Shown in pieces: positions 39,601 to 42,600 of a DNA stretch of 64,000 nucleotides. Position 1 is the first letter of the stretch; each line of letters opens with the position of its first letter. A program made the translations under genes and the position numbers. A model generated the notes under the pieces. That model saw only the letters and a program-made list of their open reading frames with translations, made no database searches and was not told the origin of the DNA. Source of the stretch: Octopus vulgaris (lineage: Eukaryota); the NCBI GenBank assembly GCA_951406725.2, contig OX597837.1, positions 37,014,001 to 37,078,000 on the forward strand, given 5' to 3'.

Positions 39601-42600
39601 TTGGTGGTCTGGACGTGTGCGTGTATGTGTAGGTGTGAAAATGTGGGGATGGGTGTGTAGGTGGTATATATATATACATATTCATTAATAGGTGTGCATT
39701 CAAAGCAATGAATAATTGTATTCAAAGCAATGATTAGTAACTTACGAAACCGGTATACTCTTTACTCTTTTACTTGTTTCAGTCATTTGACTGCGGCCAT
39801 GCTGGAGCACCGCCTTTAATCGAGCAACTCGACCCCAGGACTTATTCTTTTGTAAGCCCAGGACTTATTCTATCGGTCTCTTTTGCCGAACTGCTAAGTA
39901 ACGGGGACATAAATACACCAGCATCGGTTGTCAAGCAATGCTAGGGGGACAAACACAAACACATGAACACACAAACATATACACACATATATATATACAT
40001 ATATACGACGGGCTTCTTTCAGTTTCCGTCTACCAAATCCACTCACAAGGCTTTGGTCGGCCCGAGGCTATAGTAGAAGACACTTGCCCAAGGTGCCACG
40101 TGGTGGGATTGAACCCAGAACCATGTGGCTGGTAAACAAGCTACTTACCACACAGCCACTCCTGCGCCTATGCTTGAATCTCTTTAATAATTTCACAATA
40201 ATGACTTTTATTACTTTTATTCCTACCTCAGTTCATTCTATATATCTTTCGTTACTTTTCATAAAAAGCCTTTACATTTTATTGACTTACAATGTGCATT
40301 TTCTCTTATTTTTCTTACTTTCCCCTTACATTACCACGTGTAGTTTCTATTTTCTCTTTTGTAACATATTTCTATTATATACATATATATACATACTTTA
40401 AACACATGCATATACGTCCAAGTATACAGGTGCAAAGAAACACAAATGCAAATATATACACACACACACACACACACATCTTTGTATGTCTATCTATGCT
40501 TTCCATATTTCCAACCATCCATGTGTAACAATATAGACACATTTGTTCAGATATATGTATATATACTTATATATAAAAGAATTTTTTGCGTAATAAGATA
40601 AAAAAACCCAAGGCTGTATAGATATTAGAGCATTTATAGATAAAAGGTCTTACAGCTGTTTCGAGGATATTAATTAATAATATCCCTTCATCAGAGACGG
40701 TGTGAGAGGAAAAATTAAGTTTAATGATTTAACTATGACTTAATTTTTCCTCTCACACCGTCTCTGATGAAGGGATATTATTATTAATTAAATATCCTTG
40801 AAACAGCTGTAAGACCTTCTATCTATAAATGCTCTAAAATCTACACAGCCTTGGTTTTCTTATCTCATTACACAAAAAATTCTTATTTAAATACGCTGAC
40901 ATAGAACCAACGTTGAACCCTTTATTCGCAATATTACCGAATCTGGAACTTAACTATGGTCTGTCTATAGCACTTATTCAGCATTACCTGACACCTCTGG
41001 GTCTCAATGACACCATTATCTTTTATATACATATACATATATATATATATATATATATATATACACATACATACACAGCCAATTATACAGCTTGCAGAGA
41101 GGCATAAACACAAATATTCTTTTATTCTTGTATTTGTACGTGCACATGCAGAAGGTGTCCATAAATTAGCTTTACAATTTGAAATATTCAGAAATATATT
41201 GATACAATAAATTGTGGAAGTAGTAAAGATAATTTACGGACACCTTATATATACAAAAGGAGAGAAGAGAGAGCACTCAGACAAGAAAAAATTGAAGATT
41301 ATGTTATTACATATACAGACTGGATTTTACTTACTGCAGCAATGGAAGGTACGTGCACAGGTAGAAGGTGTCCATAAATTAGCTTTACAATTTGAAATAT
41401 TCAGAAATATATTGATACCATAAATTGTGGAAGTAGTAAAGATAATTTACGGACAGACTGGATTTTACTTACTGCAGCAATGGAAGGCTTTGTTGCATCT
41501 CCTGCAGGTGGATGAGTGACGTCAGCACCAATAAAGATCACAGGCTCCCTAAACACCGCTGGTCTGAAATGGCATCACAAGACAATTCATACAACAACAA
41601 TAACAACAACAAAATACCACTAGCATTCATCATGATCATCATAAACATATTTTTCACAGAAAACTGGAAAGGAACAACCCCACTTGTATGATGGTGATGC
41701 TTGTTTACAACCATCACATGATGTCTAGACAAGGGCACACACAAACACACACGTATACTCTTTTATGTGTTTCAGTCATTTGACTGCGGCCATGCTGGAG
41801 CACCGCCTTTAGTCGAGCAAATCGACCCCAGGACTTATTCTTTGTAAGCCTTGTACATATTCTATCAGGCCCTTTTGCCGAACCGCTATGTTACAGGGAT
41901 GTAAACACACCAGCATAGGTTGTCAAGTGATGGTGTGGGGACAAACACAGACACACACACACACACATATATAAATATATATATATATATACGATGGGCT
42001 TCTTTCAGTTTCCATCAACCAAATCTACTCACAAGGCTTTGGTTGGCTTGAGGCTATAGTAGAAGACACTTGCCCAAGGTGTCACGCAGTAGGACTGAAC
42101 CTGGGACCATGTGGTTCATAAGCAAGCTATTTACGACACAGCTGCTCAAAATCGCAAAGCTATGAGATAATGCAAGATTAATTCAAAACACGTGAATCAA
42201 AGGGGTCCATAGGCAAGAAACAGTTGAGAAACATGGGACTAAACCCTTTAAGTTCATTTACCGAAACCTGCGAAAAATAAAAGAGATTAAAAAAAAAACA
42301 AAAAAACCCCCAAAAAAAAGAGAAATCATGTTAACTTACCGAATACTTGGAAGTAAAATGCTGTTGATTCCACCTAATTTTACATTGATTTTTAGACATA
42401 AGTTGGATAATGTTTGGGGTGAAGTGCGAGTAACGTTTTTGGCTTGAACACATTGGGTTGCCAGGCCAAATAATATGTCTCCAACTCGTTTCACTTCCGC
42501 TGTGTAATTAGAAAAAAAAAAAAAAAAAAAAAAAAACAAGACATTTCATTAGATTATGGAAGAATCATTAGCATGGCTGAGAGAGTGTGCGACGCCTGGA

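What the first reader, a model, noticed from the sequence alone, without database searches (positions are those of the whole stretch)
40577..40884. Hammerhead ribozyme plus its antisense copy folded back inside an Argonaute intron
Seen: a fold-back with about 145-bp arms between PIWI exons 15 and 16. Each arm has a full hammerhead core (stem I gtct/agac, CTGATGA, stem II, GAAA, palindromic stem III acagctgt, GTA site). The 40647-40698 copy is sense to Argonaute, with predicted cleavage between 40651 and 40650; its first stem II pair is an A-C mismatch. Established: Penelope-like retroelements carry minimal hammerheads with palindromic stem III that cleave mainly as dimers. Inference: the antisense arm is transcribed first and should mask the ribozyme as dsRNA. 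A-to-I editing or unwinding could unmask it, so this could act as a conditional self-cleavage switch in the pre-mRNA of the core RNAi effector. It may equally be a neutral insertion.
Basis: partly seen in the sequence, partly recalled or inferred. Interest (0 to 1): 0.72.

Follow-up and report, generated by a model that had tools for sequence, protein, structure and literature searches.

The report
Penelope retroelement stump in Argonaute intron
The mirror-image stretch with a hammerhead-ribozyme motif in each arm is real and lies in an Argonaute intron, but it is one short copy of a jumping-gene family with thousands of copies in this genome, whose usual back-to-back way of landing likely made the hairpin, so it is likely ordinary and not an RNA switch.

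Summary
The fold-back and both hammerhead motifs are real and lie in an Argonaute PIWI-domain intron (39261-41472, minus strand). The unit is larger than reported: 40572-41021, that is a tail-less arm, a 9-base filler, a second arm and a ~130-base one-sided tail, between TA-rich runs. It is a repeat. Half of the hammerhead has 4004 exact 23-base matches in the genome, and 17 of 17 aligned loci share the two-arm, one-tail layout. Longer copies run into a reverse transcriptase and GIY-YIG endonuclease with Hydra-clade motifs. This is the published insertion form of Penelope-like elements: a 5'-truncated copy plus an inverted truncated copy. The Argonaute-sense hammerhead is predicted to be locked in a ~150-bp duplex (67 kcal/mol to refold). 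It has no same-strand dimer partner in the scanned gene span and no tail on its strand, and its core is no better kept than in other copies. RNA ends, editing and presence in relatives could not be tested. The scan has reported this architecture at other loci, in this and other genomes. Likely a neutral insertion; a co-opted switch is about 3%.

The parts
40572..40720 (-). Tail-less inverted copy of the element's 3' end (149 bases); sense to Argonaute
   Evidence: blastn to the parent body of L093; 2.1% from the family majority
40647..40698 (-). Type I minimal hammerhead motif, sense to Argonaute; predicted cut 40651/40650; A-C at 10.1-11.1
40721..40729 (.). 9-base filler at the head-to-head junction, not seen in the other junctions printed
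40730..40889 (+). Tail-bearing 5'-truncated copy of the element's 3' end (157 parent bases)
   Evidence: 6.2% from the family majority
40760..40815 (+). Second hammerhead motif, antisense to Argonaute; predicted cut 40811/40812
40890..41021 (+).
   Evidence: present on one side in 17 of 17 aligned loci
40551..40571 (.). TA-rich left flank (inferred target)
41022..41062 (.). (TA)n right flank (inferred target)
41473..41563 (-). Argonaute PIWI exon upstream of the host intron
39066..39260 (-). Argonaute PIWI exon downstream of the host intron

Best explanation
The 450-base unit is the truncated 3' end of an abundant Penelope-like retrotransposon joined head-to-head to an inverted copy of itself, and it is likely a neutral insertion into a TA-rich spot of an Argonaute intron whose hammerhead is predicted to stay locked in the hairpin. 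Shown: copy number, shared layout, link to RT and endonuclease, variable junctions. Inferred mechanism: the element's endonuclease nicked both strands of the TA run; two reverse-transcription events on the element's RNA, one starting at the far end of the tail and one at its near end, each stopped after about 150 bases of body, and the two stubs were joined with a 9-base filler. The hammerhead is cargo of the element's terminal repeat. In the Argonaute pre-mRNA the antisense arm is made first, pairs with the sense arm, is likely an ADAR substrate like other inverted repeats, and is removed with the intron.
For: Abundance: 4165 first-look candidates, 40 scored, 82 matches, most over the full fold-back at about 80-90% identity; 4004 exact matches to a 23-base hammerhead half, reversed control 0. 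Layout: 17 of 17 distinct loci aligned have two arms, a tail on one side only and mostly TA-rich flanks. Parent: L093 and L113 run RT > GIY-YIG region > 3' UTR > the same arm at 89-90% identity; L093 is a 3.3-kb truncated body plus a 97.7% identical inverted copy of about 970 bases without tail. Independent truncation: of 26 loci examined, 21 had two arm-ended copies and a tail; among the 20 other than L093 none had equal lengths (Spearman -0.12, p 0.62). Arms share variants: 15 of 17 loci have at least one non-majority base in both arms. Literature: inverted 5'-truncated copy, one-sided tail and (TA)n targets (PMC8557442); dual minimal hammerheads 100-700 bp apart on opposite strands, and no cleavage by a single motif (PMC4209133); both-strand nicking, two RT start sites bounding the tail, protein-assisted hammerhead and no RNA-seq ends at the site (PMC11167929). 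No sign of special care for this copy: 45 of 57 arms keep 11 core columns, 10 of 57 also have U4, and private changes in core versus rest are 9/570 versus 91/3981, p 0.36. The gene span holds 32 inverted pairs of at least 80 bases, among them at least four further self-palindromes.
Against: Neutrality is inferred from context; no RNA read, editing or cross-species test was possible. Both arms of this copy have canonical U4 while 46 of 57 arms have C4 (genome counts 1830 C versus 1035 U). The Argonaute-sense arm is closer to the family majority (2.1%) than its partner (6.2%). The tail is about 130 bases, not the published 30-40. Pfam support for the endonuclease is weak (E 0.02 and 0.4, below cut-off), and no Pfam RT match was found. 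Most loci in the truncation test were chosen by likeness to this short copy, which narrows the range of lengths.
Confidence: 0.92

Rival explanations
1. Co-opted conditional switch: editing, a helicase or the element's protein opens the duplex, the sense hammerhead cuts the Argonaute pre-mRNA before splicing and lowers Argonaute output.
For: The sense motif has all canonical core bases and U4. Three of the core adenosines sit 3' of G, a context that human ADARs disfavour (PMC9638939, abstract), so editing could spare them. Octopus shows very strong hyper-editing, and palindromic repeats are edited (PMC5625713, passages). An intronic self-cleaving ribozyme with a reported effect on its host gene exists (CPEB3; search listing).
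Against: Refolding costs 66.8 kcal/mol. Freeing the 11 core bases still cost about 30 kcal/mol with edits read as G, and 14-28 with edited A made non-pairing, at 10-80% editing, 12 trials per level. A14, A15.1 and A17 are in editable contexts, and the one A-C mismatch next to the core would become a pair on editing (inference). A monomer has a 4-bp helix I, a mismatch at 10.1-11.1 and a stem III with a 2-base loop. No same-strand partner was found in 33561-64000; the sister-family copy at 21407 is 12 kb past the stop codon. The tail is antisense on this strand. The same layout occurs at hundreds of loci.
Confidence: 0.03
2. A non-autonomous palindromic element (MITE-like or retrozyme-like) that moves as a fixed ~450-base unit.
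For: Many copies have the same outer ends and similar size.
Against: The centre differs in every aligned copy. Body copies range from about 120 bases to 3.3 kb and run into the RT-endonuclease frame. Similar size follows from searching with this short copy. Copies are dispersed and head-to-head, not tandem as retrozymes are (bioRxiv 10.64898/2026.07.22.740005, part 1).
Confidence: 0.03
3. The functional part is the hairpin, not the ribozyme: a source of small RNAs or an editing and splicing modulator made from the Argonaute intron.
For: A ~150-bp near-perfect duplex in a transcribed intron; sub-threshold Rfam microRNA-hairpin hits.
Against: The Rfam hits are far below gathering scores and reflect any long hairpin. 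The arms have drifted 6.4% apart with four indel breaks. The gene holds many other inverted pairs. No small-RNA data were available.
Confidence: 0.04

Closest known systems
Insertion units of endonuclease-bearing Penelope-like elements with an inverted 5'-truncated copy and a one-sided tail (Craig et al. 2021, PMC8557442; Arkhipova et al. 2013, PMC3846280)
   Same: Head-to-head truncated copies, tail at one end, TA-rich target, hammerhead in the terminal repeat.
   Different: Tail about 130 bases rather than 30-40; both copies here are cut to about 150 bases, so nothing of the reading frame remains.
Hydra clade of Penelope-like elements, including Hydra-1_Obim (PMC8557442, section 11 and Files S1, S2)
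   Same: C-terminal GIY-YIG, CxCX5C linker, CxxC and CxH around the conserved E and N, (TA)n targets; hammerheads with acag/ctgt stem III and often a mismatch at the base of stem II (U-U in many Hydra families).
   Different: Not Hydra-1_Obim: its hammerhead has other stems and stem III acca/tggt. This family has A-A at 10.1-11.1 and mostly C at core position 4.
Minimal type I hammerheads of metazoan Penelope-like elements (Cervera and De la Pena 2014, PMC4209133)
   Same: Long helix II, 4-bp helix I, palindromic stem III, dispersed copies, opposite-strand pairs 100-700 bp apart.
   Different: Lacks the conserved G10.1-C11.1 pair described there.
Intronic CPEB3 ribozyme (search listing only)
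   Same: Self-cleaving motif in an intron of a regulatory gene.
   Different: CPEB3 is HDV-like, conserved across mammals and reported active; this is one of thousands of repeat copies, predicted masked, with no shown conservation.
Palindromic repeats as ADAR substrates, e.g. frog Harbinger (Porath et al. 2017, PMC5625713)
   Same: A self-folding repeat needs no partner copy to form a long duplex.
   Different: Here the palindrome is made at insertion by a retroelement; editing of this copy was not shown.

Membership tests
Penelope-like element (EN+) insertion | Terminal repeat joined to an RT plus GIY-YIG reading frame | tested here: met
   L093 and L113 join RT and endonuclease regions to the arm. 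Pfam GIY-YIG E 0.02, below cut-off; Atlas hit at 0.94 to a cluster with GIY-YIG in 34% of members. The RT is recognised by eye against the published alignment; Pfam gave no RT match.
Penelope-like element (EN+) insertion | Inverted 5'-truncated copy adjacent to the 5' end | tested here: met
   17 of 17 aligned loci; L093; unequal truncation
Penelope-like element (EN+) insertion | Tail at one end only | tested here: met
   17 of 17; about 130 bases, longer than the published 30-40
Penelope-like element (EN+) insertion | Direct pseudo-LTRs flanking a full-length frame | tested here: inconclusive
   No full-length copy of this family among the loci fetched; L099 has tandem 3' UTR repeats
Hydra clade | [quoted passage not shown] | tested here: met
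   All three motifs are in the L093 and L096 frames, against the definition
Hydra clade | RWK and DKT motifs near the N terminus | tested here: inconclusive
   Family copies are 5'-truncated; one older relative reads NKT (L110); a relative with about 50% identity in the RT, L114, has RWR and DKT
Hydra clade | Insertion into (TA)n | tested here: met
   TA-rich flanks here and in most aligned loci
Hydra clade | RT phylogeny groups with Hydra | not tested
   Reference proteins were seen only as supplement text; no tree was built
Type I hammerhead ribozyme | Core C3 U4 G5 A6 N7 G8 A9, G12 A13 A14 A15.1, U16.1, H17 | tested here: met
   Both arms
Type I hammerhead ribozyme | Paired 10.1-11.1 | tested here: not met
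   A-C in the Argonaute-sense copy; unpaired in 21 of 26 aligned relatives. Perreault et al. rejected such hits unless activity was measured (PMC3088659); many Hydra families have U-U there.
Type I hammerhead ribozyme | Covarying helices I-III | tested here: inconclusive
   89% of cells paired but no covariation above shuffles; most rows were picked by a fixed 3' pattern, so power is low
Type I hammerhead ribozyme | Match to an Rfam hammerhead model | tested here: not met
   None at E up to 5
Type I hammerhead ribozyme | Self-cleavage | not testable with these tools
   Needs an in vitro assay
Non-LTR retrozyme | Tandem head-to-tail repeats, each with a hammerhead | tested here: not met
   Single head-to-head pair
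Domesticated intronic ribozyme | Conserved at the orthologous site beyond neutral intron sequence | tested here: inconclusive
   Contigs of other samples were flooded by other copies; within the genome the core is not better kept than in other copies

The most novel reading that the evidence does not exclude
Penelope-type insertion builds self-silenced hammerhead hairpins automatically, and this one was recruited as a feedback switch: when editing, a helicase or the retroelement's own protein opens the duplex, the Argonaute pre-mRNA cuts itself, tying the core RNAi effector to dsRNA or transposon load.
Probability: 0.03. Interest if true: 0.8.

Novelty: new member of a known kind. Interest (0 to 1): 0.1.

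Why it matters
As a neutral stump it matters little. It is a caution for genome scans: hammerhead-plus-antisense hairpins in introns arise by the hundreds from Penelope-type insertion, so landing in an interesting gene is no evidence of a switch. Two modest by-products remain. The two stubs of unequal length, one with and one without the tail, fit the two reverse-transcription start sites found in vitro and give genomic material for testing how these elements insert. The family also spread widely with a non-canonical core (C4, A-A at the base of stem II), which bears on whether these hammerheads need to cut at all. If the switch were real it would be a natural editing-gated ribozyme in an RNAi gene, which I did not find described.

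Tried and rejected
Rfam scan: no hammerhead model matched. Protein database search with the endonuclease region among longer proteins: 48 candidates, none at E up to 0.001; weak evidence. Pfam did not recognise the RT fragments or the 718-aa relative. My first clade guess, Neptune, came from memory and was dropped after reading the Hydra definition. Sequencing runs: 24 listed, none were raw RNA reads, so RNA ends and editing could not be seen. Laying four runs on 40150-41620 and four on 40670-40795 was flooded by other copies. It shows the family in runs labelled with five organisms. The copy-specific junction bin 40725-40729 had cover only in X3 (same organism label) and none in X8, X18 or the presumed RNA run X9; contigs show presence, not absence, so this is no evidence either way. 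The one raw DNA run laid only 4 reads, none on the element. Covariation test: nothing above shuffles. Core conservation over all changes was significant (9/570 versus 147/3981, p 0.007) but not for private changes (p 0.36); I read this as constraint on source elements, not on inserted copies. A look-up of earlier findings by sequence found nothing. Exon numbering was left unchecked. No complex or structure prediction was run; none bears on the claim.

Full report
Observation. The fold-back is real. Gapless inverted pieces cover 40568-40720 against 40738-40893. The minus-strand RNA folds at -216.1 kcal/mol, z -36 against 100 shuffles, with 145 Watson-Crick and 7 G-U pairs. Each arm has a hammerhead core with helix I GUCU/AGAC and the palindrome ACAGCUGU. 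The flanking exons match Pfam Piwi, the intron is 39261-41472, and the last coding exon ends near 33561. Exon numbers were not checked. Rfam found no hammerhead family at E up to 5. The organism is not given; earlier scan notes on this genome call it an octopus, which I did not test.

It is a repeat, and larger than reported. A search of the genome with 40570-40890 gave 4165 candidates; 40 were scored and gave 82 matches, mostly over the whole fold-back. The 28 loci fetched are 17 distinct places. All 17 have two arms and a tail on one side only, most have TA-rich flanks, and the centres differ. In the window the unit is a tail-less arm 40572-40720, a 9-base filler, a second arm 40730-40889 and a tail to 41021. 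A 23-base half of the hammerhead has 4004 exact matches, control 0. Two outward-facing stem-III motifs lie 120-149 bases apart at 87 loci and 150-180 apart at 102, across several families. A sister family has the same layout at 21270-21700 of this window.

The parent. Walking upstream from single arms led to L093 and L113, where an RT region, a GIY-YIG region, a 3' UTR and the arm follow in order. L093 is a 3.3-kb 5'-truncated body with tail plus an inverted copy of about 970 bases, 97.7% identical, without tail. The endonuclease has a CxCX5C linker and CxxC and CxH motifs, which Craig et al. give as marks of the Hydra clade, along with (TA)n targets (PMC8557442; passages, section 11 and supplement rows seen). 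Database support is weak: Pfam GIY-YIG E 0.02 and 0.4, an Atlas cluster at 0.94, no Pfam RT match and no protein database hit. A 718-aa relative in the same genome aligns at 51% in the RT and 37% in the endonuclease. The family is not Hydra-1_Obim, whose hammerhead differs. The Hydra lead came from earlier scan notes.

How the hairpin arises. Craig et al. describe an inverted 5'-truncated copy next to the insertion and a tail at one end. Arkhipova et al. describe head-to-head inverted repeats (PMC3846280, passages). Cervera and De la Pena saw pairs of minimal hammerheads 100-700 bp apart on opposite strands, and no cleavage by a single motif (PMC4209133, parts 1-2 of 4). Frangieh et al. found that a Penelope-type protein nicks and extends both strands of AT-rich DNA and starts reverse transcription at two sites that bound the tail; its hammerhead cut only with protein, was not needed for insertion, and left no RNA-seq ends (PMC11167929, parts 1-2 of 4). 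Here 21 of 26 loci examined had two arm-ended copies and a tail; among the 20 other than L093 the two lengths were never equal and were uncorrelated (range narrowed by how the loci were chosen). In L029, L042 and L113 the partner is a tail fragment alone. Arms of one locus share variants in 15 of 17 cases. I infer two priming events on one RNA, each truncated, then joined.

Can the Argonaute-sense ribozyme act? The core bases are unpaired with probability at most 0.007, and forcing the hammerhead fold costs 66.8 kcal/mol. With 10-80% of arm adenosines edited and seven core or cut-site adenosines spared, freeing the core cost about 30 kcal/mol when edits were read as G and 14-28 when edited A could not pair (12 trials per level; two crude bounds, not inosine parameters). 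In favour of the switch, A6, A9 and A13 follow a G, a context that human ADARs disfavour (PMC9638939, abstract only); octopus is heavily hyper-edited and palindromic repeats are good substrates (PMC5625713, passages). Against it, A14, A15.1 and A17 stay editable, stem III cannot close well in a monomer, and two scans found no other minus-strand copy with this stem III between 33561 and 64000. The part of the gene beyond the window, if any, was not scanned. The tail is antisense on this strand.

Is this copy special? Among 57 arms, 45 keep 11 core columns, 46 have C at position 4 and 11 have U, and 48 have A at 11.1 opposite A at 10.1. The genome has 1830 C4 and 1035 U4 matches. The site is a CpG, and CpG columns change at 15% against about 4% elsewhere, so U4 can arise by decay, though U in both arms may come from the source RNA. 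U4C lowers activity in vitro but occurs in a viroid (PMC3088659, passages). Core columns differ less than other columns overall (p 0.007) but not in private changes (p 0.36). The arms here are 6.4% apart, 2.1% and 6.2% from the family majority. The gene span holds 32 inverted pairs of at least 80 bases and at least four further palindromes, so long duplexes are common in this pre-mRNA.

What could not be tested. No raw RNA reads were offered. Contig lay-ups were flooded by other copies and cannot show RNA ends, editing or absence. Helix covariation was not above shuffles. Cleavage needs the bench.

Verdict. A new copy, and probably an unnamed family, of a known kind of insertion. Searches for a hammerhead in an Argonaute intron, for an editing-gated hammerhead and for octopus Penelope editing listed no such natural system; I saw listings only, and subscription papers are not covered. 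The scan has met this architecture before (10 notes in at least 3 genomes). Neutral Penelope-type stump about 0.92, switch about 0.03, interest 0.1.

Noticed in passing
window 41315-41349 and 41453-41487: An exact 35-base duplication copies the exon end and the 5' splice site 138 bases into the same Argonaute intron. Use of the second donor would add an in-frame stop (the open frame ends at 41404). A 107-base near-duplicate pair lies at 41136-41242 and 41349-41455.
   Followed up: no
window 21270-21700: Second head-to-head hammerhead pair from a sister family with the same stem III, U-A at 10.1-11.1 and an 86-base spacer, 12 kb past the Argonaute stop codon.
   Followed up: partly
window 42650-43058, 51743-51853, 52839-53118, 53223-53801: Four more self-palindromes inside the Argonaute span, with no clear hammerhead core; 42650-43058 ends about 160 bases before a PIWI exon.
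   Followed up: partly
window 39330-39440, minus strand: A repeat in the same intron, sense to Argonaute, with a hammerhead-like second half (short stem, GAAACGTA) but an altered first half, ending at a TA run.
   Followed up: no
window 11743-11874 and 7500-7600: A short palindrome with a compact hammerhead-like motif with C4 near its centre, and another C4 hammerhead-like motif between two inverted repeat copies.
   Followed up: no
family-wide: The best-sampled subfamily spread mostly with C at core position 4 and A-A at the base of stem II, which may mean a weak, protein-dependent or dispensable ribozyme.
   Followed up: partly
L093 3500-3950, L094 6000-6300, L096 3400-3700: Parent copies carry asparagine-rich (AAT/AAC)n inserts between RT and endonuclease, like those described in rotifer Penelope elements (PMC3846280).
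   Followed up: no
L114 3010-5163: A 718-aa open frame of a related Hydra-type family within a 1.76-kb inverted repeat; many copies gave the same score, so that family is likely young.
   Followed up: partly
window 13869-14146: A 97.5% perfect AT-rich palindrome between TA runs, with no hammerhead core.
   Followed up: no
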